From assembly GCA_963169515.1 (NCBI GenBank), contig CAUJEF010000007.1:12546-76545 (forward strand): a stretch of DNA of 64,000 bases. The letters are read 5' to 3'. Position numbers and translations under genes: made by a program. Position 1 is the stretch's first letter, and every line of letters starts with the position of its first letter. This stretch comes from Bdellovibrionota bacterium. GTDB taxonomy: Bacteria; Bdellovibrionota; Bdellovibrionia; Bdellovibrionales; JAEYZS01. The notes under the pieces are model-generated. The model was not told the origin of the DNA. It did no database searches and was given only the letters and a program-made list of their open reading frames with translations. Positions 1 through 15,498 of the stretch are shown one piece after another.

Positions 1-508
1 AGGGTAGAGGCAATAAGATTTCCCATCATTTTCATGGTTTGATTTACGGCTAAAATTTCAGGCGTCGTTACGAGCACAACAGCAGAGCTTTTTTCGATCA
101 CTTTCATTTGTGTGTCTGTAACCGTGCAGCCCAAGTCTACAAAGATATATTGGAAAAACTGTGACAAAAATCGAAGTGGGCTGTCAATGTAATCTGCACC
201 AAGATTTAGTTTTTCAGAAGGCCCTTTAACTGCCGCAACGTATCCTATTCCAGAAACATGCTTGCTCACAAATGCGGGAATGGTTTGGGCCGTCAATTGA
301 CCGGTAAATGTAGCAAGATCTGAAATTGTTTTTTGTGGACGAATTCCTAAAATTACGTTTTGATCGCCGCAGGATTCGGAATCTAAGTCGACCAGAAGAA
401 CCCGAGAGCGAGTTTCTTTTAGGCACGCGATGGCAAGGTTTGCAGCGACAACACTTTTTCCCACGCCACCTTTGCCGCCAAGAATTGAAATTATATGAGA
501 GTTTTCCA
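1..508 (-). CDS. ParA/MinD-type pilus assembly ATPase (TadZ/CpaE-like), C-terminus cut by window edge
   Basis: Not in the ORF track because it runs off the window. Manual translation from ATG at 508 gives MENSHIISILGGKGGVGKSVVAANLAIACLKETRSRVLLVDLDSESCGDQ... with a KGGVGKS P-loop at residue ~12. The frame is open down to nt 1. It lies immediately downstream of the secretin gene in the Tad operon. Confidence 0.75.
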
Positions 509-592: not shown

Positions 593-2065
593 CTAATCTT
601 TCAGCTTAAATTTTGCTTTAATCTTTTCTGATCCCGCACTTGCCGAGCTTTTAATTACCGGAGTAACAAAGACGACGAATTGAGACTGGTTACGGCGGAA
701 TTTCTTCGAGCTATAGAGCGAAATAATCGGATTATCGGCGCCAGGTGGAATTTTGTTGAAATCAGTTCCGCTTTGATTTCCAACCAAGCCGCCGATAGCA
801 GCACTTTGTCCGCTTCTGACGGCTACCGTCGTTTGAATTGAGTTATTGGATATCATTGGGATACCAGCGCTTGTTTGCCCAACAAGGCTGCCAATTTTAA
901 AAGTGATATTTAAACTGATAGTGTCCGATTGGGGGTTTGGAATTGAAGGTGTGATATTTGTTTCAAGACCGGCCTTCATACGCTCGGTACTTCCAACCCC
1001 ATTGGCGCTTTGTACAACATACGGGATGTCTGTGTAGGATTCGATTTTGCCCGGAACGCCTTCTTGAACGATAACACTCGAACTTTGTAGAACTCGTGCG
1101 TGTCCGTGTTCTTTTGCCCAATTTAGTTTGGGAAGAAGGTTACTGATGGTTCCAGTAATTGAACTTAAAGCACCGCTTGGGTTCCTTGTGCTTTGTGAAA
1201 ATTCAAACTTTGTTCCATCGTCTAAATTGGGGGTCCACTGAAAGTTAAACCCTTTTGTGTAAGACTTGTTCAGCTCCACATAGTGTACAACCAATTGAAT
1301 AATTTTGGGTGCGGGCTTTGCCGTAGGTGGTTTCGTTTTAATAAGATTGATCACCGGAACGGCATTTACCGGCTTTAGAGCTTCATTGCCTGGCTCAGTT
1401 GCCAAGTCTGGAAAATAAGCCTGCGCGATGATGAACGCCTTTGACTTTTCTTCTTCGTCGTTTGCATATCCTTCCAGAATGAATTTACCGTTAACTGCAC
1501 GGCAGGTAATTTCAGGATTATTAATGTCGCGTTCAATAAGCTCAGAAATTTTCCTTTGTGCAATGGGAGACATACGAACAAGGCTCGTGGCCTGTCCCTC
1601 GTAAAGATTAACGACGCTTATTATGCGTGCGATGTCTTTTGGTAAAAGAACTTCGCCGTCGACAACAACTTTGCCGTTGATAATTTTAATTGTTATACCT
1701 TCGATTTCATTAAGTTGCGTTTTGATTTCTGACGCGACCTTATTCAAATTTCCTTTTACAACGGAGATATAATACTCTTTAACTTTTTTTCCATTTCCAT
1801 CAAGAACAACAAGGTTACCGTTGCCAAGTTGGGTTGGTGTAAAACGAAGTGTTTTAGACGTGGGATCTAAAAAAACCTTCGTTATTTTTTTGTAATCACC
1901 TTCAAATTGTGGATTATCCGGAAGATCTGGAGCCTTTTCGTCATACGCAACACCTTGCGATAAATTGACATATCGGCGAGTGATGGCTCCTGCGGTTTCT
2001 TGTGATTGTGCAATAGTCCCATAGACAGTGAGTATCGCAACAGCAAGCTTAATAATCTTTTTCAT
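593..2065 (-). CDS. cpaC: Tad/Flp pilus secretin (RcpA/CpaC family)
   Basis: 490 aa with a signal peptide (MKKIIKLAVAILTVYGTIAQS). It has a BON-like N-terminal region and a C-terminal secretin-type domain ending ...QFVVFVTPVIKSS. It sits between the cpaB-like and tadZ-like genes. Confidence 0.85.
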   Translation of the reverse strand: MKKIIKLAVAILTVYGTIAQSQETAGAITRRYVNLSQGVAYDEKAPDLPDNPQFEGDYKKITKVFLDPTSKTLRFTPTQLGNGNLVVLDGNGKKVKEYYISVVKGNLNKVASEIKTQLNEIEGITIKIINGKVVVDGEVLLPKDIARIISVVNLYEGQATSLVRMSPIAQRKISELIERDINNPEITCRAVNGKFILEGYANDEEEKSKAFIIAQAYFPDLATEPGNEALKPVNAVPVINLIKTKPPTAKPAPKIIQLVVHYVELNKSYTKGFNFQWTPNLDDGTKFEFSQSTRNPSGALSSITGTISNLLPKLNWAKEHGHARVLQSSSVIVQEGVPGKIESYTDIPYVVQSANGVGSTERMKAGLETNITPSIPNPQSDTISLNITFKIGSLVGQTSAGIPMISNNSIQTTVAVRSGQSAAIGGLVGNQSGTDFNKIPPGADNPIISLYSSKKFRRNQSQFVVFVTPVIKSSASAGSEKIKAKFKLKD

Positions 2066-2072
2066 AATATCC

Positions 2073-2957
2073 TCACTTTACTTCCACAAATGGGCCGCGA
2101 CGGCTAGAGGGTTTTCGGGTTTCTTTGGGCGGTGTCACCGGCGGGGCAATGGGCGGCAACACACGGTTCACTATTGGCTCGCTCATAAATCCCAAAATTG
2201 TATTTGAACTGCTCGGAGCAAGATTTACAGTTACCCGATCATTCGGATTTCGAAGAGATACATACAGGCTTCCAGGGGATGATGCCAAAATGTAGACAAG
2301 GTTCTGAGCTTCTTGGGGGCTTGCCTCAACCGTAACCGAGGTAAACGATGTATCACCTTCAAGTCTTTTTATCATTGCACGGTCTGAGAAGTTTTCTTTT
2401 TCAAGAACACGAGGAATGTTGTTTGTAATGCGTTCGCCAGTTGCAAGCACGACCACGTCTTGCATTAACGTCTTTACTTGTGCCTTTTTGGTTGGACCAG
2501 ATCCGCTTTCGATATTGGCTAAAATGTCAATGTGATCGCCTGGTATAATCAGTTTTGCAACCCCGCGGACTTCGTCGATGGGAATGGAAACGGCTCGCTT
2601 TTGGGGAGCAATTTGTCTTGCCAGACCCGTATTGGGTCCGAGCGTATGGGTCTTATTGTCTATGATAGGTTCGCCTTTTTTAAATGGTACGGCGGCAACT
2701 CGATTTACGGCTTCTGCGATATCTTCGAATGTGCCGATTTGGATGAATTTTGCGGGGACCTCAACGTACTCAACCATTGTTTCATCTATATAAGCCATGT
2801 CTTGAATATCTGTTTTTGCGACAACGATGTTCTTTTTTACGCCAAATTCTCTGTCGTACATGGCCTTTTTCTCTTGGGAGTAGCTGTAGATTAAAAACAT
2901 CGCCAAAACTCCAAGCCCTACGGATATCCATAATGTTCGTGACTGATTCGGGCCCAT
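2073..2957 (-). CDS. cpaB: Flp pilus assembly protein CpaB/RcpC
   Basis: N-terminal TM segment (LWISVGLGVLAMFLIYSY) followed by a SAF/RcpC-like body. The preferred start is ATG at 2957, 1 nt after the upstream stop with GGTGG upstream. The track ORF extends to 2978. Confidence 0.8.
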   Translation of the reverse strand: MGPNQSRTLWISVGLGVLAMFLIYSYSQEKKAMYDREFGVKKNIVVAKTDIQDMAYIDETMVEYVEVPAKFIQIGTFEDIAEAVNRVAAVPFKKGEPIIDNKTHTLGPNTGLARQIAPQKRAVSIPIDEVRGVAKLIIPGDHIDILANIESGSGPTKKAQVKTLMQDVVVLATGERITNNIPRVLEKENFSDRAMIKRLEGDTSFTSVTVEASPQEAQNLVYILASSPGSLYVSLRNPNDRVTVNLAPSSSNTILGFMSEPIVNRVLPPIAPPVTPPKETRKPSSRRGPFVEVK

Positions 2958-2958
2958 A

Positions 2959-3426
2959 TTAACCACCACACTTTGCATCTAAGCAGATGCCGTAAGCTGT
3001 TTTTATCCATATCGGATTTGCTTTATTATATTTTCCTGGCATAGGGACGCCTTCGGTTGCCTTATCCGGCCTAAATGTACTGGAATTCGTTTCCGCTGCG
3101 TCTGTTGCAATTGTAATTGGAACTTTTTGGGCGATCCAGAGATCATCAGGATTAGGAAGAATTACACCATGAGCCCGAAACCCAAGGGCGGCCATGCTCT
3201 CTGGTCGGTCAGTAGATGGATTTCTGTGGTAGGTTACGTTTGCGCGGTTACGAATAATTTCAAACGCATACGCACGGGCGGAAATTGAATTTAAAATTCC
3301 TGTGTGAATTGCGCTATAAAACCCCGTTGCAAAGCCCATGAATAATACAAAAATGAAAAGTAACATGGTCGTTTCAACAGTTGCCAACCCCTTTTCGTTA
3401 TTCATGTTTTTTTTAATCTTTTTCAT
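2959..3426 (-). CDS. TadE-like pseudopilin (prepilin-type N-terminus)
   Basis: From Met36 of the track ORF: MKKIKKNMNNEKG|LATVETTMLLFIFVLFMGF. This is a G-x4-E prepilin-like cleavage motif followed by a hydrophobic helix. The start lies 1 nt after the upstream stop (TAAaATG). Confidence 0.65.
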   Translation of the reverse strand: MKKIKKNMNNEKGLATVETTMLLFIFVLFMGFATGFYSAIHTGILNSISARAYAFEIIRNRANVTYHRNPSTDRPESMAALGFRAHGVILPNPDDLWIAQKVPITIATDAAETNSSTFRPDKATEGVPMPGKYNKANPIWIKTAYGICLDAKCGG

Positions 3427-3427
3427 T

Positions 3428-4012
3428 TTAACATCCATTATCATCAAATGCCACATAGCCCGTGCCACTGGTCGTAGTTGCAAGACCATAGCTTTCGTCC
3501 AAGGCTTTAATTCGTGTATACCGCTGCTCAATCATTTCCATACATTCTTTCGATGTCACTTCTCGACCTAAAAATGATGTCACGGTTGTTTTATAACCAT
3601 TTTCTCTTTCGGTTGAGCCAACAAAGGGGATGGTCATACCGAGGAGCTTGGCTTGCACATTGAATCGCGCGCCGATAAAGACGTCTCTGCCGTCGGCGCC
3701 GCCGTAAAGGTTTGAAAAGTCCCCAAAATTAGGGGTTATGATAAACCAATCTTTTTTTGGGCTTAAAAAATAAGCGAATTTTCCATTTACAAGTTTATCA
3801 AAAACATTTTCAGCGAGCCTTATTTGCGCAGCACGATCAATATTGCCGGCAAAATATGCTCGCGAAGACGAATACGCTGTGTATTGAATGATTTCTATAA
3901 GGGAAAGTGTAAAACAAAACATACCAAATACCACCGTCGTCCCCATCACAAGCATAAGTGCGAAAAGGAAATCTAAACTTAAAGCGCCGCTCTGGTTTCT
4001 GAGGTTCTTCAT
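3428..4012 (-). CDS. TadE/TadF-like pseudopilin
   Basis: MKNLRNQSG|ALSLDFLFALMLVMGTTVVFGMF: a short basic leader, Gly, an acidic residue at +5 and a hydrophobic helix. ATGA overlap with the upstream gene. Confidence 0.6.
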   Translation of the reverse strand: MKNLRNQSGALSLDFLFALMLVMGTTVVFGMFCFTLSLIEIIQYTAYSSSRAYFAGNIDRAAQIRLAENVFDKLVNGKFAYFLSPKKDWFIITPNFGDFSNLYGGADGRDVFIGARFNVQAKLLGMTIPFVGSTERENGYKTTVTSFLGREVTSKECMEMIEQRYTRIKALDESYGLATTTSGTGYVAFDDNGC

Positions 4013-4257
4013 TCGGCAGTCCCCTTTACAGAAAGGTGGTGAGATCCGTGTCCGGGATGAAAGCCTCTTGTTTTGTCGGGTTTTCCAAACTTTCCGTTTT
4101 CAATCATTCCAGAAACCTGATCCCAAGGACCTGACACAAGCTTATTTGCAAATTCCCCGTGCACGAATGTTCTTTGAATCACAAGCCCAATTGCAAGCAC
4201 AACCACCAAAAGCAACACCATTTCGACGGTCATTTGTCCGGCCTGAGAACTTTTCAT
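4009..4257 (-). CDS. Small prepilin-like protein (82 aa) with His-rich C-terminus
   Basis: From an internal Met: MKSSQAG|QMTVEMVLLLVVVLAIGLVI (Glu at +5), with the tail ...GFHPGHGSHHLSVKG. The start overlaps the peptidase stop (ATGA). The track ORF extends to 4299. Confidence 0.6.
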   Translation of the reverse strand: MKSSQAGQMTVEMVLLLVVVLAIGLVIQRTFVHGEFANKLVSGPWDQVSGMIENGKFGKPDKTRGFHPGHGSHHLSVKGTAE

Positions 4258-4760
4258 ATTGCACTTCCGTAGTGGCTTACAATCAAATGACTGACCCATC
4301 CGCAGAGCAAAGCGAATGTGTACGGAATTTTATGCAGTTGTTCTTGTGGAGCTCCTTTTAGCATTACGATGGTAGAAAGATTTTGAGCAAAGCTTTTAAT
4401 GCCTTTATTCATTATCAACATTCCGAGGCCGAGAATTGTTCCCCATAAAAGCGAATACAAAAACACGTTAATGACGGTGCCCATTGAGGTAGCAACGCCA
4501 AAAGCAGTAAAAATTTTTACATCGCCGCCACCTAGAGCTTTAATTAAAAAAAGCGGAAGCGTTATGGCAAGCGCTAACCCCCCGGAATAAAGCGCGTTCA
4601 AAAGCCCGCTTATTCCCCAAAAATAGACTGTATGAACGACCCCCAAACCAAGGCAAAACAAAAACACCCAATTATGAACTTTACGCTTCATAACGTCGTC
4701 AATTGTCGCTAAGCCTAGAATGACAGACGGGACAACATAAACCATCACTTTACCACCCAA
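4254..4760 (-). CDS. cpaA: A24-family prepilin peptidase (TadV/CpaA)
   Basis: 168 aa and polytopic. It carries the GGGDVKIFTAFG motif typical of aspartic prepilin peptidases, and an early Asp in LATIDDVMKRKV. The start may instead be Met6 (4745). Confidence 0.85.
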   Translation of the reverse strand: MGGKVMVYVVPSVILGLATIDDVMKRKVHNWVFLFCLGLGVVHTVYFWGISGLLNALYSGGLALAITLPLFLIKALGGGDVKIFTAFGVATSMGTVINVFLYSLLWGTILGLGMLIMNKGIKSFAQNLSTIVMLKGAPQEQLHKIPYTFALLCGWVSHLIVSHYGSAI

Positions 4761-4935
4761 TCGGCTCTGGAGCTTTTTTTGCCTTTTGTATGAACTCAGA
4801 GCCTGTTGTTATATGAACTTCGATTCTGGCGCCCAAGCTGGGGCCAGCGTTTCTAAAAACCTCTGGAGGTTTTTTGAAAACCCCTCCAATAATGAAGATC
4901 GCTAATGCTAATAACAGTACAAGCTCTGTGGTCAT
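4750..4935 (-). CDS. 61-aa pilin-like protein without leader peptide
   Basis: MTTELVLLLALAIFIIGGVF...: a hydrophobic pilin-type helix begins at residue 2 with Glu at position 4. The ATG lies 6 nt after the flp stop, with GGGGA upstream. Confidence 0.5.
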   Translation of the reverse strand: MTTELVLLLALAIFIIGGVFKKPPEVFRNAGPSLGARIEVHITTGSEFIQKAKKAPEPIGW

Positions 4936-4941
4936 GTTGGA

Positions 4942-5133
4942 CTAATCCCCAGAAGAAAAGCTTTGAACGCTATCATTGATGGACCCCATTTTGGTTTCGA
5001 TCATTGATTTAATTTTGTCTTTGAACACGATTACAACAGCGACAACGACGACCAGTAATAAAATATACTCTGTCGCACCTTGAGCTGATTCATCTTTCCA
5101 CAGACGTTTGAATGTATTTTTAAGTTGTTTCAT
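4942..5133 (-). CDS. flp: Flp-family type IVb pilin (63 aa)
   Basis: MKQLKNTFKRLWKDESAQGATEYILLLVVVVAVVIVF...: G-x-x-EY followed by a hydrophobic stretch. A strong SD (AGGAGG) lies 7 nt upstream of the ATG at 5133. The track ORF start at 5178 is probably too long. Confidence 0.8.
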   Translation of the reverse strand: MKQLKNTFKRLWKDESAQGATEYILLLVVVVAVVIVFKDKIKSMIETKMGSINDSVQSFSSGD

Positions 5134-5173
5134 ATTGAGTCCTCCTCTATGGAAACTTATCGGTGAATAAGTG

Positions 5174-5189
5174 AGCAATGTTTAAGCCT
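5174..5189 (-). promoter_or_regulatory. Candidate sigma-54 (-24/-12) promoter for flp operon
   Basis: The minus strand reads aGGCttaaacaTTGCt. GG and TTGC have the exact consensus spacing (TGGCACG-N4-TTGCW). The other positions do not match. It lies ~40 nt upstream of the flp ATG. Confidence 0.3.
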
Positions 5190-5416
5190 AAGTGTTGATT
5201 TTTAGACGGCATTTAACTAAAAAATCTCATTTTGAGACACTTTTTGATAAAAGCTCCTGAAAGTCCTGTAAACAAGATCGACAAAGAGGCTCGGATATTC
5301 CGTTTTTGCAATAGAGGGGATTGGAGCCCCCCCTTGTTCTAAGTCGCGCTCCTCGTCGGAGTGATTAAAATGGGGTCATTAAAAACTGGTCCCCTTCGTT
5401 GTTGGTACGTCAACCT

Positions 5417-5549
5417 GGTTGCTCCTTAACTTAATTGTCTTCCTTGTAAAAACGAGTTCCGCAAGGCGCGATGCTCACAGTAGTGAGCGGCGCGGTCTGA
5501 GGACTGTCCGAGATTTTTACAAGGAAGACAATTAAGTTTAAGGAGCACC
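5417..5549. repeat. Long inverted repeat (~33-bp arms, one indel per arm, 61-nt spacer containing an inner 6-bp hairpin)
   Basis: The left arm ggttgctccttaacttaattgtcttccttgtaaaaa (5417-5452) pairs with the right arm tttttacaaggaagacaattaagtttaaggagcacc (5514-5549). The spacer contains gctcac-agta-gtgagc. Confidence 0.85.
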
Positions 5550-5674
5550 AAATCTTTCTTTTCCAACGACCAAGTGGGCCCGTTTTTGAAATATTAACCC
5601 TGATATCTTCCAGAACAAATATTGCCACGCAATGAGCCTTGCCAGCAGGGTGATTTTTTTATACCTTCGTTCGC

Positions 5675-6220
5675 ATGCAAAAAGAGTTTTTTAAAAAAAC
5701 AGAGAAAGCTTACGGTGGAGAACTTCTCAAGAAGCGAAAGGGCCGTATTGCGGGGCGACCAGTCGTCACCAAGCAAACAATGCATTTGGTGCTTAGATCT
5801 TCCGTTGCAAAGGGCAAATGGTCATTTTTAGAGCCAAAAAATAAAGAAAACATTCGAATTATTTTGCGCAAATTCGCTGAAAAATATGGGGTGAAGCTTC
5901 TCCACGGAGCCAATGTCGGCAACCATATTCATTTGGAAATTCAACTTACCAACCGACATACCTATAAACCGTTTATTCGCGCCGTCACCGCAGCTATTGC
6001 AATGAAAATAACTGGTGTCAGCCGTTGGAAAAGCAAAGAAGACGTTGGAATAAATAAGTTCTGGGATTTGCGTCCTTTTACCCGGGTGGTGGTCGGATGG
6101 AACGCTCGATTGTCATTAAAAGATTACATTAAAGTGAATCACCTGGAGGCGAAGGGGTTCAAGCGAGACATTGCAAAAGTTTTTATTCAACGCCAGCGTG
6201 GTTTATTGCAATCTGGCTAG
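5675..6220 (+). CDS. HUH/Y1 transposase-like protein (IS200/IS605 TnpA or REP-associated RAYT-like)
   Basis: 181 aa. It has ...MHLVLRSS..., an HUH motif in GNHIHLEIQ, and a candidate catalytic Tyr in LKDYIKVNH. No tnpB/second ORF is present. Confidence 0.65.
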   Translation: MQKEFFKKTEKAYGGELLKKRKGRIAGRPVVTKQTMHLVLRSSVAKGKWSFLEPKNKENIRIILRKFAEKYGVKLLHGANVGNHIHLEIQLTNRHTYKPFIRAVTAAIAMKITGVSRWKSKEDVGINKFWDLRPFTRVVVGWNARLSLKDYIKVNHLEAKGFKRDIAKVFIQRQRGLLQSG

Positions 6221-6243
6221 CACAACTTAGCTAGCACAACCTA
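6216..6243. repeat. 14-bp tandem direct repeat x2 at 3' end of Y1 transposase gene
   Basis: gctagcacaactta / gctagcacaaccta is read directly. It spans the TAG stop (6218-6220). Confidence 0.7.
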
Positions 6244-6264
6244 GCCGGCACGATCCCAACCAGC

Positions 6265-7113
6265 TTATTCTTTGCTGTTCTGAAAATTCATCACTTGGCT
6301 TCCAAAGAACACAACAAGCGCAATTACGATCGCGGCGATAACCAAATATTTAAAAAATTGACCGAAAGACATGGGTTCATCCTTCGGAATCTCTGCAGGT
6401 TTTCTGTCCTCGGTCACGACAGGTATTTTTTTTGCAGTTCTTATTTCATTGGAATCCACTTTGGCCGCGATGCCAGAGACAGCCGTGGCGGCTTGCTTTT
6501 TTTTCTGTTCGCCGGGGACGGGAATGTAGCGAGATCTATTCCCCCCGCCGACCCGTATAGTTTCATCAATAACAATAATTTTTCGGCTTCCCCTGGAAAT
6601 TCCTTCGGAATCAGCCCCAGCAGCATCCTTTTTTTCCTCGCCCCCGGCGTTGGCTGCAATCGAGCGTCTATTCCGCCTTCCAGATCCGGAGCTAAAAAAG
6701 CCATCAGATCCGCTACCCCCGCTGATGTTTGAGGCTGAGTTGCTAGAGTTAGAGCCATCATGATCCCCATTTTTGTCTTTTGTATTATTTGGGTCACCGC
6801 TGCCATCAGGGTTGTTAGCCTCACCAGATCCGTCCGTTCCGCCTGATCCAGCGCCCGCCCCGCCAGCACCTATTTGGGGATCGTCACAATTAACTCCGGC
6901 AGGAAGATTTCCAGGAAGCTGTCCGTAAGTCAGCGCACATTCCAGCTGTGTACCGACAATGTTTTCACCAAAGAAGCGAAAAGCAGAGCCAAACTTAAAT
7001 AAAACACCGGTGATCAGCGCGACAACAATAAATAAAATTAAGACGTACTCAAGTGCCGCTTGACCCTTTTGATTGCTCGCGAGGTTGTTGTTTTTAGAAA
7101 ATTGGTTTTCCAC
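6265..7113 (-). CDS. Flp-motif prepilin fused to G/S/N/D-rich disordered region and C-terminal TM anchor
   Basis: 282 aa with a GTG start. The N-terminus ...NQKG|QAALEYVLILFIVVALITGV is a perfect G-x4-EY Flp motif. The middle is low-complexity (GAGGAGAGSGGTDGSGEANNPDGSG...). The C-terminal helix is FFKYLVIAAIVIALVVFFG. Confidence 0.65.
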   Translation of the reverse strand: MENQFSKNNNLASNQKGQAALEYVLILFIVVALITGVLFKFGSAFRFFGENIVGTQLECALTYGQLPGNLPAGVNCDDPQIGAGGAGAGSGGTDGSGEANNPDGSGDPNNTKDKNGDHDGSNSSNSASNISGGSGSDGFFSSGSGRRNRRSIAANAGGEEKKDAAGADSEGISRGSRKIIVIDETIRVGGGNRSRYIPVPGEQKKKQAATAVSGIAAKVDSNEIRTAKKIPVVTEDRKPAEIPKDEPMSFGQFFKYLVIAAIVIALVVFFGSQVMNFQNSKE

Positions 7114-7218
7114 ATAATCTATTTCGACATTTAAAAGTTAAATATTTAATAGACAAAGGTCCAGGTCATCGAGCAACGACTTATTCAAAAAACGGAATAA
7201 GTACTAATATTTATAAAT

Positions 7219-8301
7219 ATGTTTCGTACACTTGTAAGCTTCTTTTTTGTGGCTAGCCATTGTTTGGCAACAGAACCTGCTCAATCTTCGCGGGGTCGGG
7301 GCGACGCTCAAATTAAGAGCTTAGAGGCTCTTGCACAAAAAAGACCACACGACAAGTTTATCAATCTTAAGCTAGCGGATATTTATTATAAAAAGAAAAA
7401 TTGGGACAAGGCACTTGCTTATTATAAAATTGCAAATACGAACTTGAACGTGGCCGCACTCGAAGGAATTGTGAAGTGTTTGGATAAAAAAAAAGATTAT
7501 CTAGAGCTTGTGCGGGCACTTGAAATTTTAAAACAAGAAAAGCCAATGGTTCCTAAATACTCTGCACAATTGGCGGACGCCTATGTAAAACAGGGGTCTC
7601 TGGACAAGGCCATTGAAAACTACAAAAATGCAATTAAACTGGCGCCCAAGTTTGATCATCCTTATGAGGGGCTGCTCCAATTACATGAAAAAAACAAAAA
7701 TTTTTATGAAGCCGCGATTGTTGCAAAAGACGCAATAAGGACCATGGGAGATCCCAAAAACATTTTTATTAGCAAGTTGTGTAAATATAAATATTCAGAA
7801 AATTACTATGAGGACTCAAAAATTATCTGCCAAGATGCCATCGCAAGGGCACCAAAAATTCCAGACAATCATGTCTACCTCGGCCTTTCTTATAAATATA
7901 CAGGGAACGAAAACCAGGCGCGGAAAATAATAATTTCTTCAGGCAAGAAATTTAAGCAAAGCGAATTTGCCCAGTTTTATGCGGGCCAGGCTTCAGATGA
8001 GTCCCGCAACTGGGAGCAGGCGGTAATTTTTTATCGACAAGGAACCATATCAGATCCAAACCAGGCGCGCTGCTTCTTGGGGCTTGCGAAAGCGCATTAT
8101 GAATTGCGCCAGTATCAACCTTCGATCGAAGCGTTTGTTAAGGCTTGTGAGCTGGACAACTCAGTGGACAATGAAATGAAACGAATTTCAGGTCTTTTGC
8201 GTGCAAAGAATGAAAACGCATGGTACGCAAAGTTTCGAAGTCAAGCGGACAGATGCCCCGTTTTGCGCGATTTAAAGGAAGCTAAAAAATCTACGAAATG
8301 A
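7219..8301 (+). CDS. Secreted TPR-repeat protein (TadD-like by context)
   Basis: 360 aa with a signal peptide (MFRTLVSFFFVASHCLA). Repeated TPR-like units are present (ADIYYKKKNWDKALAYYK, ADAYVKQGSLDKAIENYKNA, etc.). It is divergent from the Flp-motif gene. Confidence 0.6.
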   Translation: MFRTLVSFFFVASHCLATEPAQSSRGRGDAQIKSLEALAQKRPHDKFINLKLADIYYKKKNWDKALAYYKIANTNLNVAALEGIVKCLDKKKDYLELVRALEILKQEKPMVPKYSAQLADAYVKQGSLDKAIENYKNAIKLAPKFDHPYEGLLQLHEKNKNFYEAAIVAKDAIRTMGDPKNIFISKLCKYKYSENYYEDSKIICQDAIARAPKIPDNHVYLGLSYKYTGNENQARKIIISSGKKFKQSEFAQFYAGQASDESRNWEQAVIFYRQGTISDPNQARCFLGLAKAHYELRQYQPSIEAFVKACELDNSVDNEMKRISGLLRAKNENAWYAKFRSQADRCPVLRDLKEAKKSTK

Positions 8302-8814
8302 ATCTCCGATTTCAATAATTCGGAAAGCTTTAATTTTTTTATTGCCTTTCAAGGCCCTCACAATTTTTTGTAAGCTCGATTTGGGCCCAGTTAAAACCAA
8401 AAGGTTTATCCCCACCAGGCTGCGTGCGCTCCGAAGTTCAACAATCTCAAGACCTGTGTTGACCGCGGAAGCAGAAATACGGAAGGCTTCGCATAATGTT
8501 TTTGTCTCTATGACAAGAACATCATCACGAGGGGAAATTTTGAGCAAGTTGTAAAAACCTTTTAAGACGTGTTCATTTACATTTTCAATAACGGCAGAAT
8601 CAATCAAATCTTTTTTTGGAAGTTCTTTGTGGTTTTTTAAAAGATCGTTTTTGTGACCGTTCAACAGGATGACAAAGTTCCCTGTCAAGGTTGGGAAGGC
8701 CTCGAGAAGATGGGCGCTGGCAGAAGAAAAATTTTGCAGTAATTCATATCCGACCGAAATGCTTTTGGCTTCAACAACAAGGAGTGAGCTGCCGTTTGAT
8801 AAAATTGTCGTCAT
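8272..8814 (-). CDS. Hypothetical protein, internal duplication with possible BMC-like fold
   Basis: 180 aa. Two halves each carry a (L/V)VxE(A/T)K motif: LLVVEAKSISVGYELL... and VLVIETKTLCEAFRISASAVNTGLEIVEL...LLVLTGPKSSLQKIVRAL. Its 3' end overlaps the convergent TPR gene by 30 nt. Confidence 0.5.
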   Translation of the reverse strand: MTTILSNGSSLLVVEAKSISVGYELLQNFSSASAHLLEAFPTLTGNFVILLNGHKNDLLKNHKELPKKDLIDSAVIENVNEHVLKGFYNLLKISPRDDVLVIETKTLCEAFRISASAVNTGLEIVELRSARSLVGINLLVLTGPKSSLQKIVRALKGNKKIKAFRIIEIGDSFRRFFSFL

Positions 8815-13325: not shown

Positions 13326-14623
13326 CTGACCTCAAGGACTTGAAATTCGCCGAGCTCCTCGACAACGCTATAGTTATATTCTCTGGCCCATTCGGGCAAG
13401 GTTTGGTCATATCGCAAGACCACATAAAAAGGTGTGGAGGGCTTGGATTCAGTTAAATAATCATAAAAGTCACGTCGATTCATATCGCGCAACTTGTAAA
13501 CAGACTTTTTAGCCATATAGTTAAGCTGTGCGGCGACTTGATATGACCCAGCGAAAAGCGGGGAATATTTATATGGAATTTCTTTTAATACGCGGTAGAC
13601 ATTCAACTCCTTAAGCTTGGATTTTTCAAAAATTAATCTGGGTTTTTGAATTGCAATTACAATCACAACTGCAACAAAAAGCGTTGTCCAAACAAACAGA
13701 GTGGTTTTTTTCCACGATATTTTTTGCATTCCAAGTACGGCAAGAGCGAGTACCGCAGGATATGCCATAATAGGCCAATTCGGTTCAACGCGGCTTTTAA
13801 GGGATGTGACAAAGAAGAAGACAAGAGGAAGAAAAGCCCAAATACTTAAACTATGGAAATTCTTTTTTGAGAATCGAATCGCAGGAATCAAAACAAGTGG
13901 AAACAGAAGCAAGATTTGCCCCCCGAGATACTCTAGCGGGTAGGTTAGGCTTTGCGATTTCTTTACAAGACCGTGTCTTAGCTGAAAGGCAAAAGAATCA
14001 AAGTCGTGCGTAAAGTTCCAAATCAAAACAGGAAGTGAAAACAAAAGCCCCATAAATACGCATACGCGAACATGTTGGAGCTTTACGATATGCCATTGTT
14101 TCTTCACGGTAAGCCAAAATAAAATTCCCAATGGGAAAAGAACGATGTGATATTTTGAACAAAATCCCAAGCCAAGACATATTCCCAAAGCGCGAGCGAG
14201 CCGGGGCGTTGGATGATTAATGTATTCTTCAAACATGAGCAGACTTAGAGACCAGAAAAAAAGCAGCGGGATGTCTGGCGTCGCGATAATCCCACCCAAT
14301 CCAAAAAGAGGGTTTAGTAGTGCCAGCAATAGCCAGGCCGCCAATTGCTTTTGATCCATATATTTTTCAAGAATTTTTTTCCAAATTAGAAGGGTTCCGT
14401 GTGACATCACAATAACTGGAAGGCGGCCTAAATTTGCTATACTTTCAAATGGCCGCCCGAGGGAGAGCAGCCATGCGATCATCGGAGGGTGATCAAAATA
14501 GCTCATTTGAATGTGGTGGGACCAGACCCAATAATATGCTTCGTCTGAAAAGAACGGAACAAGTGCTGCGAGCCCTATTTTTACAAATAGGCTCACCCAC
14601 CAAATTTTTAAGAACAAACTCAC
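13322..14623 (-). CDS. GT39/ArnT-like (PMT_2) membrane glycosyltransferase
   Basis: 433 aa and polytopic. The N-terminal signature is FSDEAYYWVWSHHIQMSYFDHPPMIAWLL. Confidence 0.75.
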   Translation of the reverse strand: MSLFLKIWWVSLFVKIGLAALVPFFSDEAYYWVWSHHIQMSYFDHPPMIAWLLSLGRPFESIANLGRLPVIVMSHGTLLIWKKILEKYMDQKQLAAWLLLALLNPLFGLGGIIATPDIPLLFFWSLSLLMFEEYINHPTPRLARALGICLGLGFCSKYHIVLFPLGILFWLTVKKQWHIVKLQHVRVCVFMGLLFSLPVLIWNFTHDFDSFAFQLRHGLVKKSQSLTYPLEYLGGQILLLFPLVLIPAIRFSKKNFHSLSIWAFLPLVFFFVTSLKSRVEPNWPIMAYPAVLALAVLGMQKISWKKTTLFVWTTLFVAVVIVIAIQKPRLIFEKSKLKELNVYRVLKEIPYKYSPLFAGSYQVAAQLNYMAKKSVYKLRDMNRRDFYDYLTESKPSTPFYVVLRYDQTLPEWAREYNYSVVEELGEFQVLEVR

Positions 14624-15498
14624 TTTGGAAAGCTCAGGTCGATCGCTTGCCCAAGGTTTCCGGGGACACCGGTGTCTCGACCATTGTAAATGATGTTAAC
14701 TGCGCCACCATCGCTGATGGTCAATGTGACTTTGGTCTGTCCTTTGATCGTTAGTATTTGCTCTGGCTTTAAATCGACAGATTTTGCAGATCCATTATCA
14801 ATATTGTATTTCACTCTAACATTATCAAGTGCTTCGATAATTACTTGTTGAGGGGCTGCCGCGACTTGAACGGGGCTAGGGGTTGGTTTTGGAAGAGGGG
14901 TTGTCGGCACAGATGTCGCTGTCGGGGCAACAGGCTTATCGGTCGGCTGTGGTGAGGGCTTTGCTTCAGGCGACTCAACCGGCGGGGCAACCACAAGATT
15001 TGGATTCGGTGATTGTGATGGTTCTGTGTTTACGGTATTTGTCGATACCTGCGTGATAACGGTCTCTTTTCTTTCGGCAGCTTGTTTTGATTCCTCTTCA
15101 TATTTATTAATTGTTTCAACCAAAAACCACGCAAAACCTAGCAATAATAAAATTCCGGCAACCACAGATCCTTTTTTAATTAAATCCCACTTCTGATTTA
15201 TAAAGTCCAAGGTGTTGTTGTCATTTGCGGGATTAGACTCCAGCTTAGTAATCTGGGGCTTGGTCGTTCCCAGGTCAGCCATGAACATTTGCATAATCTT
15301 ATCGACATCCACGTCCAGGTGGCGAGCGTAAGATTGAACGAAGCCGCGCAAAAATGGTTTCGGAGGAAGACCTTGTTCGTCCCCCTCTTCAATAGCGATA
15401 AGGATTGCGCTATTAATTTTTGTAACAACAGCAACTTCTTTGATAGTAAGTTTCTTTTTTTCGCGCTCTTTTTTTAGTAGCTCACCGATGTCTTTCAT
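14620..15498 (-). CDS. rodZ: Cytoskeleton protein RodZ
   Basis: An XRE-type HTH (LTIKEVAVVTKINSAILIAIEEGD...LPPKPFLRGFVQSYARHL) is followed by a TM segment, a Pro-rich linker and a C-terminal beta domain. Synteny is ndk-pilW-rodZ. Confidence 0.85.
   Translation of the reverse strand: MKDIGELLKKEREKKKLTIKEVAVVTKINSAILIAIEEGDEQGLPPKPFLRGFVQSYARHLDVDVDKIMQMFMADLGTTKPQITKLESNPANDNNTLDFINQKWDLIKKGSVVAGILLLLGFAWFLVETINKYEEESKQAAERKETVITQVSTNTVNTEPSQSPNPNLVVAPPVESPEAKPSPQPTDKPVAPTATSVPTTPLPKPTPSPVQVAAAPQQVIIEALDNVRVKYNIDNGSAKSVDLKPEQILTIKGQTKVTLTISDGGAVNIIYNGRDTGVPGNLGQAIDLSFPK

What the first reader, a model, noticed from the sequence alone, without database searches (positions are those of the whole stretch)
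6265..7113. 282-aa protein with a perfect Flp prepilin motif, a long G/S/N/D-rich spacer and a C-terminal TM anchor
Seen:
- The N-terminus ...NQKG|QAALEYVLILFIVVALI is the best G-x4-EY Flp motif in the window.
- It is followed by ~200 residues of low-complexity acidic/Gly/Ser/Asn sequence, including an RRNRR patch.
- The protein ends in a second hydrophobic helix (YLVIAAIVIALVVFFG).

Flp pilins are normally ~50-80 aa. A pilin head tethered to the membrane at both ends would not be extractable into a filament in the usual way. This suggests a regulatory, plug or anchor role.

Inference only: in Bdellovibrio bacteriovorus the host-interaction (hit) locus is reported to sit within pilus-type genes, so this neighbourhood could be functionally analogous.
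Basis: partly seen in the sequence, partly recalled or inferred. Interest (0 to 1): 0.55.

Follow-up and report, generated by a model that had tools for sequence, protein, structure and literature searches.

The report
Membrane-tethered Flp-like pilin family
The gene is real and belongs to a large, unnamed protein family of predatory Bdellovibrio-type bacteria that joins a pilus-subunit head to a long floppy linker and a second membrane anchor; its role is untested, but it probably works with the Tad/Flp pilus these predators need to attack prey.

Summary
ORF 6265-7113 (-) has a single possible start, the GTG at 7113. It carries the only strict G-x4-EY plus hydrophobic-helix motif in all six frames of the window.

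The architecture is a basic leader, G|Q-x3-E-Y, a roughly 48-residue N-terminal helix, a two-Cys loop, a roughly 185-aa disordered G/S-rich linker, a C-terminal TM helix and a short tail. It is conserved in a family of 917 50%-identity clusters. Every member identified in genomes is from Bdellovibrionales. No member has a functional name, and no Pfam or NCBIfam model covers the family.

Profile comparison ties the N-terminus to the local Flp1 pilin and to a neighbouring pilin-like protein. All three share an unusual Gln at +1.

The gene nearly always sits divergent from a periplasmic TPR gene. In 13 of the 46 places compared by tblastn it lies at the flp end of the Tad locus. In this window it lies just upstream of flp1, separated by an IS200-like insertion.

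Best reading (inferred): a TadV-processed Flp-like pilin that stays leashed to the inner membrane and anchors, caps or gates the Tad pilus. The proposed hit-locus (Bd0108/Bd0109) analogy is not supported. It is a new variant of a known kind, of moderate interest.

The parts
6265..7113 (-). 282-aa ORF, called FAM here. It is a member of an uncharacterised Bdellovibrionales family with a prepilin-like N-terminus, a disordered linker and a C-terminal TM anchor.
7045..7113 (-). Leader (aa 1-16, basic) and the predicted prepilin-peptidase site KG|QAALEY (Gly17 = -1, Gln18 = +1, Glu22 = +5, Tyr23 = +6).
   Evidence: Below-threshold Pfam hits to Class_IIIsignal and TadE. hhalign against the local Flp family gives 96.9% probability.
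6925..7065 (-). Predicted long N-terminal alpha1-like helix (aa 17-63). Its first ~25 residues form the hydrophobic TM1.
   Evidence: AF2 helix 16-63; hydrophobic segment 16-45
6886..6939 (-). Conserved 'C-L-L-E-x-G-E-L-P ... C' loop between the two invariant cysteines (Cys59 and Cys76). I infer a periplasmic disulfide.
   Evidence: Searches show both Cys invariant. Cys1 sits at +41/42 and Cys2 at +56..72 in 197 sequences.
6397..6879 (-). Disordered G/S/N/D-rich linker (about aa 79-239), including the RRNRR patch and a few short conserved islands.
   Evidence: pLDDT below 50; composition and length statistics; column conservation
6280..6366 (-). Conserved C-terminal TM helix (aa 250-278; family consensus FGxFxRxLxIAAIIIALxxFxGGQ), followed by a short tail.
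7114..7218 (.). 105-bp divergent intergenic region shared with the TPR gene. On the minus strand it contains TAAA-N16-GTCGAAAT, a weak sigma28-like match that is conserved only in the close relative L003.
7219..8301 (+). Divergently transcribed 360-aa TPR protein with an N-terminal signal sequence. It is a near-constant neighbour of the family.
   Evidence: TPR families in Pfam and NCBIfam; synteny
5675..6220 (+). IS200/IS605-like Y1 transposase gene. It lies inside a ~900-bp insertion (about 5290-6250) that separates FAM from flp1 in this lineage only.
4942..5133 (-). flp1-type major pilin (63 aa from MKQLKN...; predicted site ESA|QGATEY). A sigma28-type promoter, TAAA-N16-ACCGATAA, lies upstream.
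   Evidence: Pfam Flp1_like 2.2e-12
4750..4935 (-). 'Trimmed' flp2-type gene. The product starts MTTELVLLL with no leader.
   Evidence: PMC5430801
4254..4760 (-). TadV-type prepilin peptidase (Peptidase_A24). The translation shows the GGGDVK motif.
   Evidence: Pfam 1.5e-12; translation
2959..4299 (-). Three pilin-like (TadE/F-type) genes: pp96 (4009-4299, site G|QMTVEM), pp194 (3428-4012, site G|ALSLDF) and pp190 (2959-3531, site G|LATVET).
593..2978 (-). RcpC/CpaB-like gene (2073-2978) and secretin RcpA/CpaC-like gene (593-2065) of the same Tad locus.
   Evidence: Pfam labels of the orthologues appear. tblastn identity to those orthologues is 85-87% in L003.

Best explanation
**What it is.** The ORF encodes an inner-membrane protein with two membrane helices and a large periplasmic loop. 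The predicted topology is N-in, C-in.

**Proposed mechanism.**
1. The N-terminus is a Flp-type prepilin. I propose that the Tad prepilin peptidase encoded 1.5 kb away (4254-4760) cleaves it after Gly17.
2. Cleavage would expose a mature Gln-Ala-Ala-Leu-Glu-Tyr N-terminus on a roughly 48-residue alpha1-like helix capped by a small disulfide loop.
3. That head could dock into the Flp1 filament or its assembly platform like a minor pilin.
4. Unlike any described pilin, the head remains leashed to the inner membrane. The leash is a roughly 185-residue disordered linker ending in a conserved C-terminal TM helix.
5. The protein would therefore anchor, cap or gate the base of the Tad pilus, or limit how far the pilus extends.
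6. The divergently encoded periplasmic TPR protein is a likely partner that binds the linker.

**Shown here.** The gene is real. The architecture is conserved across an order-wide family. The N-terminus is profile-similar to the local Flp. The gene is recurrently linked to the flp end of Tad loci. An intact A24 peptidase is present.

**Inferred.** Cleavage, topology, the disulfide, interaction with the pilus and with the TPR protein, and the anchoring/gating role.
For: **Motif and start.**
- The site is unique in the window and absent from shuffled windows.
- The GTG is the only possible start.
- Start codons lie upstream of the Gly in 41 of 41 loci.

**Family conservation.**
- 917 representatives match at E<=1e-3, and the best 150 are 267-364 aa and match over essentially their full length.
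- Gln(+1) is 99%, Tyr(+6) 97% and Leu(+8) 98% among motif-bearing members.
- A charged Glu at +5 in every motif-bearing member is the type IV pilin hallmark. A plain membrane anchor would not need it.

**Similarity to local Tad substrates.**
- hhalign of the N-terminal domain against the local Flp1 family gives 96.9% probability over 42 columns.
- Against the local pp96 family it gives 96%.
- Flp1 (ES[AG]|QGATEY), pp96 (G|Q...E) and this family (G|Q...EY) all have Gln at +1. This fits a shared peptidase.

**Peptidase present.** An A24 peptidase lies in the adjacent locus.

**Structure.**
- AF2 predicts one continuous helix at 16-63, as in a pilin alpha1. It also predicts a C-terminal helix and a disordered middle.
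- Two invariant Cys lie on the predicted periplasmic side.
- The leader carries a median net charge of +3, and the 15 residues before TM2 carry -2. This fits an N-in/C-in topology.

**Synteny.**
- The gene lies at the flp end of the Tad locus in 13 of the 46 places compared (45 loci plus the window): the window, L002, L003, L004, L008, L015, L018, L027, L032, L035, L036, L037 and L045. This holds in three different arrangements.
- In L003 it lies 172 bp upstream of flp1 on the same strand. The window differs only by an insertion of about 900 bp.
- The TPR-FAM pair is inverted as a unit in the window and in L003.

**Linker length.** The 5-95% range is 169-215 aa. In my judgement that is narrow for a disordered segment.
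Against: - There is no experimental evidence for cleavage, localisation or any pilus phenotype.
- In Bdellovibrio sensu stricto, including B. bacteriovorus, no Tad gene lies within 10 kb. The constant neighbours there are the TPR gene, DUF2203, nadE, an RNase T gene and a ferredoxin gene.
- All Pfam hits are below the curated thresholds, and the Flp1_like hit falls on the C-terminal helix.
- Profile similarity is confined to the signal peptide and the hydrophobic helix. hhalign probabilities can be inflated for such segments. Beyond the TM there is no similarity to the local pilin-like proteins (probability below 1%).
- The sigma28-type promoter that drives flp1 is not a family-wide feature upstream of this gene.
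- The TPR neighbour looks like a generic TPR protein.
- Four loci with upstream sequence available show no adjacent TPR gene: L008, L018, L027 and L040.
Confidence: 0.4

Rival explanations
1. A pilus-independent envelope protein. In this reading it is a two-helix inner-membrane protein whose disordered periplasmic loop works with the TPR neighbour in some housekeeping envelope process. The Flp-like N-terminus is not cleaved and serves only as a signal-anchor.
For: In Bdellovibrio sensu stricto the gene lies among housekeeping genes (MiaB-like, LolA, DUF2203, nadE) with no Tad gene within 10 kb. The most constant neighbours are the TPR gene and DUF2203, not tad. Pfam hits are sub-threshold.
Against: Near-invariant Gly(-1), Gln(+1), Glu(+5) and Tyr(+6) are unnecessary for a simple anchor. 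The Gln at +1 is shared with the local Flp1 and pp96. The gene is adjacent to the flp end of the Tad locus in three different gene arrangements.
Confidence: 0.3
2. A released, pilus-displayed protein. In this reading the C-terminal helix is a temporary anchor or sorting signal that is removed. The Flp-like head then enters the pilus, at the tip or along the shaft, carrying a long disordered tail that acts as a flexible adhesin toward prey.
For: An acidic motif (E-D-E-P-F-x-F-G) followed by a TM helix and a short tail loosely resembles a tripartite C-terminal sorting signal. Tad minor pilins with extra C-terminal modules are known, such as CpaL and the TadG/KilN-type proteins (PMC13170226; PMC12075869).
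Against: No NCBIfam sorting-signal model (PEP-CTERM, GlyGly-CTERM and the like) matches at E<=0.1. The tail lacks a basic cluster, with a median net charge of 0. No sortase-like gene is present in any of the neighbourhoods examined. The helix and its G-G-Q end are more conserved than a disposable signal would need to be.
Confidence: 0.12
3. A substrate or regulator of the type IVa pilus system, or a functional analogue of the hit-locus proteins Bd0108/Bd0109 that tune pilus extrusion and the switch to host-independent growth.
For: Like Bd0108, the protein is largely disordered and predicted to be periplasmic (the abstract of PMC4267844). Bdellovibrio type IVa pili are essential for predation (PMC5430801).
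Against: Bd0108 and Bd0109 use Sec signal peptides and lie at the tadB/tadA end of the locus. This family uses a prepilin signal with Tyr at +6, which from general knowledge is typical of Flp and not of type IVa pilins. It lies at the flp end of the locus or away from tad altogether.
Confidence: 0.06
4. Not a real protein, or the wrong start, so that the Flp-like motif is never translated.
For: The start is a GTG with no obvious Shine-Dalgarno sequence. RefSeq records of B. bacteriovorus homologues often start at an internal Met (266-270 aa), which removes the motif.
Against: The window ORF has no alternative start. The residues upstream of that internal Met are the most conserved in the family. 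Upstream in-frame starts are found in 41 of 41 loci. The family has hundreds of full-length members.
Confidence: 0.02

Closest known systems
Flp/Fap type IVc (Tad) major pilins (Pfam PF04964 Flp_Fap, PF16982 Flp1_like), e.g. Bd0119/A11Q_2366 Flp1 and Caulobacter PilA
   Same: Both have a basic leader, the G|x4-E-Y site and a hydrophobic N-terminal helix. Profile-profile probability against the local Flp1 family is 96.9% over 42 of 54 columns. The Gln at +1 matches the local Flp1. The gene is often adjacent to flp1.
   Different: This protein is 282 aa, whereas the local Flp1 is 63 aa. It adds a two-Cys loop, a disordered linker of about 185 aa and a conserved second TM helix. It scores below the Pfam thresholds.
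Tad pseudopilins / minor pilins TadE, TadF, TadG (CpaJ, CpaK, CpaL; Kil 'Tip' pilins)
   Same: It has a prepilin-type N-terminus with an added C-terminal part, is encoded beside a Tad locus, and plausibly acts at the base or tip of the pilus rather than as the bulk subunit (PMC13170226; PMC12075869).
   Different: There is no folded globular or vWA domain. The extension is disordered and ends in a membrane anchor. There is no sequence similarity beyond the TM to the three local pilin-like proteins. The TadE Pfam score is 14.1 bits against a cut-off of 22.9.
Bdellovibrio hit-locus proteins Bd0108/Bd0109
   Same: These are predator-lineage periplasmic proteins next to Tad genes. Bd0108 is intrinsically disordered (PMC4267844).
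   Different: They have Sec signal peptides, lack both a prepilin motif and a C-terminal TM, and lie at the tadB/tadA end of the locus. The homologues of this family in B. bacteriovorus-type genomes lie beside nadE with no Tad gene within 10 kb; the HD100 homologue is CAE81196/Q6MGT3.
C-terminal tripartite sorting signals (PEP-CTERM, GlyGly-CTERM, LPXTG type)
   Same: A short conserved motif is followed by a TM helix and a short tail at the extreme C-terminus.
   Different: There is no model match, no basic tail and no cognate sortase gene nearby.

Membership tests
Flp/Fap pilin (PF04964 / PF16982) | Short basic leader, G|xxxxEY cleavage motif and about 20 hydrophobic residues | tested here: met
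   KG|QAALEY plus a hydrophobic stretch. It is unique in the window and conserved across the family. hhalign against the local Flp gives 96.9%.
Flp/Fap pilin (PF04964 / PF16982) | Score above the curated Pfam threshold | tested here: not met
   Flp1_like scores 16.7 bits against a cut-off of 33.5, and the hit falls on the C-terminal helix. Flp_Fap gives no hit.
Flp/Fap pilin (PF04964 / PF16982) | Small single-module protein (about 40-90 aa) with no further membrane anchor | tested here: not met
   The protein is 282 aa with a second TM helix at 250-278. Family lengths run from 267 to 364 aa.
Flp/Fap pilin (PF04964 / PF16982) | Cleaved by TadV/CpaA and polymerised into a filament | not testable with these tools
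   This needs a cleavage assay and pilus preparations. All that can be shown here is that an A24 peptidase gene is present at 4254-4760.
TadE/TadF/TadG pseudopilins (PF07811, PF13400) | TadE-like N-terminal domain above threshold | tested here: not met
   PF07811 scores 14.1 bits against a cut-off of 22.9.
TadE/TadF/TadG pseudopilins (PF07811, PF13400) | Folded periplasmic domain following the N-terminal helix | tested here: not met
   AF2 predicts no folded domain, and most of residues 81-220 have pLDDT below 50. hhalign of the post-TM region against the local pp96, pp194 and pp190 families gives probabilities below 1%.
Class III (prepilin-type) signal peptide proteins in general | Gly at -1, Glu at +5, hydrophobic helix, and a cognate A24 peptidase in the genome | tested here: met
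   PF04021 itself is sub-threshold at 15.3 bits against 23.7.
hit-locus proteins (Bd0108/Bd0109) | Sec signal peptide; position at the tadB/tadA end of the Tad locus; co-transcription with bd0110-0111 | tested here: not met
   This family has a prepilin-type signal. It lies at the flp end of the locus or away from the Tad locus (PMC3818213).
hit-locus proteins (Bd0108/Bd0109) | Sequence homology to Bd0108 or Bd0109 | not tested
C-terminal sorting signals (PEP-CTERM, GlyGly-CTERM etc.) | Match to an NCBIfam/TIGRFAM sorting-domain model, a basic C-terminal cluster, and a cognate sortase | tested here: not met
   No NCBIfam hit at E<=0.1. The median net charge of the tail is 0. No sortase-like neighbour appears.

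The most novel reading that the evidence does not exclude
This would be the first doubly anchored pilin. After TadV cleavage the Flp-like head is drawn into the Tad (Kil-like) pilus of the predator, while the C-terminal helix stays in the inner membrane. The ~185-residue disordered linker would then act as a leash or ruler that sets how far the pilus can extend, or that holds its base under load during prey attachment and invasion. The periplasmic TPR protein would read or control the state of the linker.
Probability: 0.2. Interest if true: 0.75.

Novelty: new variant of a known kind. Interest (0 to 1): 0.55.

Why it matters
Tad/Flp ('Kil-like') pili are needed for predation by Bdellovibrio and Myxococcus (PMC5430801, PMC8460266, PMC12075869). 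How their extension, anchoring and retraction are controlled is still poorly understood.

This family is conserved across the whole order and has no Pfam model or functional name. Its diagnostic motif is often hidden in RefSeq records, because the annotated start falls downstream of it. If it is a tethered pilin, it would add a new component class to type IV filament machines: a subunit that cannot fully leave the membrane. It would also give a concrete genetic handle on Tad pilus control in predators, for example Q6MGT3 in strain HD100.

Even if it proves unrelated to pili, it is a well-defined, lineage-specific envelope protein with a conserved TPR partner.

Tried and rejected
1. **Genome scan with the window protein alone.** It found no relatives. 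A 48-sequence alignment was too divergent for the pattern search. A 12-sequence alignment then worked.
2. **PDB sequence searches.** The family profile gave only noise, all with E>0.1. The TPR neighbour matched only generic or designed TPR proteins.
3. **Family-wide sigma28 (FliA) promoter.** I looked for one like that of flp1. TAAA-N16-GTCGAAAT occurs only in the window and in L003, with one unrelated match elsewhere. I rejected it as a general feature.
4. **Sigma70 scan of 5100-7400.** It found nothing.
5. **Covariation between TM1 and TM2 (mutual information with APC correction, 127 sequences).** There was no clear inter-helix signal. The top pairs all lie within residues +19 to +40. With so few sequences this is inconclusive.
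6. **Homology of the post-TM domain to the three local pilin-like proteins.** None was found.
7. **Internal duplication of TM1 and TM2.** hhalign gives 11.7% probability. Rejected.
8. **Fitness data for the B. bacteriovorus homologue.** I tried to locate it in the Tn-seq supplements of PMC6561027 through its nadE neighbour, but found no match. A literature search for Q6MGT3 found nothing.
9. **Literature searches for a pilin with a C-terminal TM anchor.** No precedent turned up in the held library.
10. **Fold searches.** I did not run them, because the models contain only two helices and a disordered middle.
Full report

The ORF runs from 7113 down to 6265 on the minus strand and encodes 282 aa starting with GTG. 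Reading the sequence shows no other in-frame ATG, GTG or TTG until far downstream. The Flp-like motif is therefore translated if the gene is expressed at all. Gene callers in four metagenome assemblies called the identical 282-aa product in the same context.

- KG|QAALEYVLILFIVVALI at the N-terminus;
- a G/S/N/D-rich middle containing RRNRR;
- YLVIAAIVIALVVFFG at the C-terminus.

A six-frame scan for G-x4-E[YF] followed by 16 uncharged, hydrophobic residues finds only this site in the 64-kb window. It finds none in 50 codon-shuffled windows.

AlphaFold2 was run with 12-sequence and 60-sequence alignments. With the deeper alignment it predicts one continuous helix at 16-63, a helix at 250-278, and low confidence (pLDDT below 50) over most of residues 81-220.

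**2. It is a conserved family, not an oddity.**

A word-indexed search found 11 relatives of 270-331 aa. They align end to end, with the same N-terminal motif, two invariant cysteines and the same C-terminal helix.

A profile of that alignment, run against 1.84 billion cluster representatives, gave these hit counts:

| E-value cut-off | Hits |
|---|---|
| 1e-3 | 917 |
| 1e-10 | 828 |
| 1e-30 | 608 |

The best 150 hits are all 267-364 aa and match over essentially their full length.

Of the 161 sequences then in hand, about 94% have G[QK]xxxE[YF] in the first 90 residues. Apart from a few split windows, each shows one N-terminal and one C-terminal hydrophobic segment, and most have two cysteines.

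In 197 motif-bearing members:
- the first Cys sits at +41/42 from the predicted cleavage site;
- the second Cys sits at +56 to +72;
- the linker from Cys2 to TM2 has a median of 184 aa, with a 5-95% range of 169-215;
- the tail after TM2 is 6-16 aa;
- the linker is 16% Gly and 15% Ser.

Position-wise conservation among motif-bearing members: Gly(-1) and Glu(+5) are 100% by selection, Gln(+1) is 99%, Tyr(+6) 97% and Leu(+8) 98%. The C-terminal consensus is FGxFxRxLxIAAIIIALxxFxGGQ.

No member has a functional name. Most are 'hypothetical protein', one JGI record is called 'Flp pilus assembly pilin Flp', one is mislabelled 'ubiquitin', and two carry precomputed PF16982 or PF04021 hits. For the window protein, Pfam and NCBIfam give only sub-threshold hits.

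**3. Who has it, and where is the gene?**

A genome scan recovered 39 loci. All are labelled Bdellovibrio, Pseudobdellovibrionaceae, Bdellovibrionales or Bdellovibrionota, or come from loosely named MAGs. One MAG is labelled Bacillota but has the same synteny, so I suspect it is mis-binned.

Named homologues include:
- BDW_14095 in strain W;
- Bdt_3708 in strain Tiberius;
- CAE81196/Q6MGT3 in HD100.

RefSeq entries for B. bacteriovorus often start at an internal Met and are 266-270 aa instead of 291-294. This removes the leader and the GQxxxEY motif. Yet an in-frame start upstream of the Gly exists in 41 of 41 loci, and the removed residues are the most conserved in the family.

Synteny was mapped by tblastn with the window's proteins, supported by called genes. 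The common order is:

[Tad locus (-)] - TPR (-) - FAM (+) - DUF2203 (+) - NadE (+) - RNase T (-) - ferredoxin (+)

The arrangements seen:
- **Tad locus adjacent.** The flp end of the Tad locus is adjacent in the window and in L002, L003, L004, L008, L015, L018, L027, L032, L035, L036, L037 and L045. That is 13 of the 46 places compared.
- **No TPR between.** In L008, L018 and L027 no TPR hit lies in between, and FAM is divergent from flp directly.
- **Pair inverted.** In the window and in L003 the TPR-FAM pair is inverted as a unit. FAM then lies immediately upstream of flp1 on the same strand, with a 172-bp gap in L003.
- **Window-specific insertion.** The window differs from L003 by an insertion of about 900 bp. 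The insertion carries an IS200/IS605-like Y1 transposase gene and a perfect 25-bp inverted repeat.
- **Tad locus not nearby.** In Bdellovibrio sensu stricto the Tad locus is not within 10 kb. LolA and MiaB-like genes lie upstream instead.

**4. Relation to the local Tad substrates.**

The window's Tad locus encodes the following:

| Gene | Coordinates (- strand) | Predicted site or feature |
|---|---|---|
| Flp1 | 4942-5133 | ESA\|QGATEY |
| flp2, 'trimmed' | 4750-4935 | starts MTTELVLLL |
| A24 prepilin peptidase | 4254-4760 | Pfam E = 1.5e-12 |
| pp96 | 4009-4299 | G\|QMTVEM |
| pp194 | 3428-4012 | G\|ALSLDF |
| pp190 | 2959-3531 | G\|LATVET |

Flp1, pp96 and FAM share Gln at +1 across the related loci. 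In my judgement that residue is unusual at this position, and sharing it fits one common peptidase.

Profile-profile comparison (hhalign, run in the sandbox) of the FAM N-terminal domain gave:

| Compared with | Probability | Columns aligned |
|---|---|---|
| local Flp1 family | 96.9% | 42 |
| pp96 family | 96% | 32 |
| pp190 family | 81% | 25 |
| post-TM regions of pp96, pp194, pp190 | below 1% | - |

The pilin likeness is therefore real but limited to the class III signal and the alpha1-like helix. Hydrophobic helices can inflate such probabilities.

**5. Most likely mechanism.**

*Topology (inferred).* The leader is basic, with a median net charge of +3. The 15 residues before TM2 are acidic, with a median of -2. 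The two invariant cysteines lie between the helices. This fits N-in, a periplasmic loop, and C-in.

*Model (inferred).* TadV cleaves after Gly17. The mature head consists of an alpha1-like helix plus a small disulfide loop. It can engage the Flp1 filament or the platform like a minor pilin. It remains leashed to the inner membrane by the linker and TM2.

At roughly 0.35 nm per residue (my assumption) the linker could span about 60 nm. The head could therefore leave the membrane. The outcome would be anchoring, capping or gating of the pilus base, or a limit on extension.

The TPR neighbour has a signal sequence and TPR repeats. From general knowledge, TPR repeats bind extended peptides, so it is a plausible binder of the linker. 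The linker has only a few conserved islands.

I give this overall model a probability of 0.4. The sub-claims carry different weights:
- 'real, conserved, pilin-like N-terminus': about 0.9;
- 'TadV substrate': about 0.6;
- the specific anchor/gate role: about 0.25.

**6. Rivals.**

(a) *Pilus-independent envelope protein (0.3).* The housekeeping neighbourhood in Bdellovibrio proper supports it. The invariant pilin-type residues and the recurrent adjacency to flp count against it.

(b) *TM2 is a removable sorting signal, and the protein is displayed on the pilus (0.12).* There is no sorting-model hit, no basic tail and no sortase-like neighbour.

(c) *Type IVa pilus or hit-locus analogue (0.06).* Bd0108 and Bd0109 have Sec signals and are co-transcribed with bd0110-0111 at the other end of the locus (PMC3818213).

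(d) *Artefact or wrong start (0.02).* The evidence in sections 1 to 3 effectively refutes this.

**7. Comparison with what is known.**

The closest kinds are Flp pilins and the Tad minor pilins: TadE/F/G, CpaJ/K/L and the Kil Tip pilins (PMC13170226; PMC12075869). None of these papers describes a pilin-like protein with a C-terminal membrane anchor. Three further literature searches found no precedent in the held library.

Avidan et al. screened BALO genomes for GxxxxEY proteins. In HD100 they reported only bd0119, bd3297 and 'bd4000' (PMC5430801), so this family was not noted there.

The protein fails the size, single-module and score criteria of Flp and TadE. I therefore do not file it as a member of either family. 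I call it a new variant: a membrane-tethered Flp-like pilin family.

**8. Verdict.**

The novelty class is a new variant of a known kind. Interest is 0.55.

The family is large, lineage-specific and unannotated, has an unprecedented architecture, and sits beside machinery that matters for predation. All functional statements remain inference.

Noticed in passing
window 4254-4760 (-): An apparently intact A24 prepilin peptidase lies inside the Tad locus. Pfam Peptidase_A24 scores E = 1.5e-12, and the translation shows the GGGDVK motif. Orthologues with the same Pfam hit are present in L002, L003 and L046-L048. Avidan et al. [quoted passage not shown]
   Followed up: partly
window ~5290-6250 (gene 5675-6220 +; inverted repeat 5428-5452 / 5514-5538): A ~900-bp insertion relative to the close relative L003. 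It carries an IS200/IS605-like Y1 transposase gene (which also hits the REP-associated tyrosine transposase model weakly) and a perfect 25-bp inverted repeat with a 61-nt loop. It separates the tethered-pilin gene from flp1. The same insertion is seen in four metagenome assemblies.
   Followed up: partly
window 4750-4935 (-): A 61-aa 'trimmed' Flp2-type protein that starts MTTELVLLL with no leader and no Gly. It is conserved in all adjacent Tad loci examined and matches the flp2 described by Avidan et al. How a pilin without a leader is handled remains unexplained.
   Followed up: partly
window ~5165-5195 (-) and 7125-7160 (-): flp1 has a sigma28/FliA-type promoter match, TAAA-N16-ACCGATAA, which is also present in L003. 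The tethered-pilin gene has a weaker TAAA-N16-GTCGAAAT only 7 nt before its GTG. That match is conserved in L003 but not in other lineages. The GTG has no obvious Shine-Dalgarno sequence.
   Followed up: partly
window 8272-8814 (-): A 180-aa ORF overlapping the 3' end of the TPR gene. It has a weak NCBIfam hit to the microcompartment shell protein PduT/EutT type (E = 1.7e-9, far below the cut-off). It is conserved in L003 (53% identity) and is called as a gene in L046 and L047. Its function is unknown.
   Followed up: no
B. bacteriovorus homologues (e.g. L029 9989-10864; cluster): RefSeq/PGAP models of this family in B. bacteriovorus commonly start at an internal Met and are 266-270 aa instead of 291-294. 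This deletes the leader and the GQxxxEY motif from the annotated protein, which may explain why the family has gone unnoticed.
   Followed up: yes
family C-terminus (window aa 270-273, nt ~6295-6306): A nearly invariant G-G-Q lies at the predicted cytoplasmic end of TM2. It echoes the G|Q at the cytoplasmic end of TM1. This may be coincidence or may have functional meaning. In the window protein it reads G-S-Q.
   Followed up: no
window 14620-15498 (-): A 292-aa protein with an HTH start, one TM segment and a Pro/Ala-rich stretch. Its positional counterparts in the related loci carry HTH_25/HTH_19 domains, which suggests a RodZ-like protein to me. It belongs to the conserved housekeeping block downstream of this locus.
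   Followed up: no
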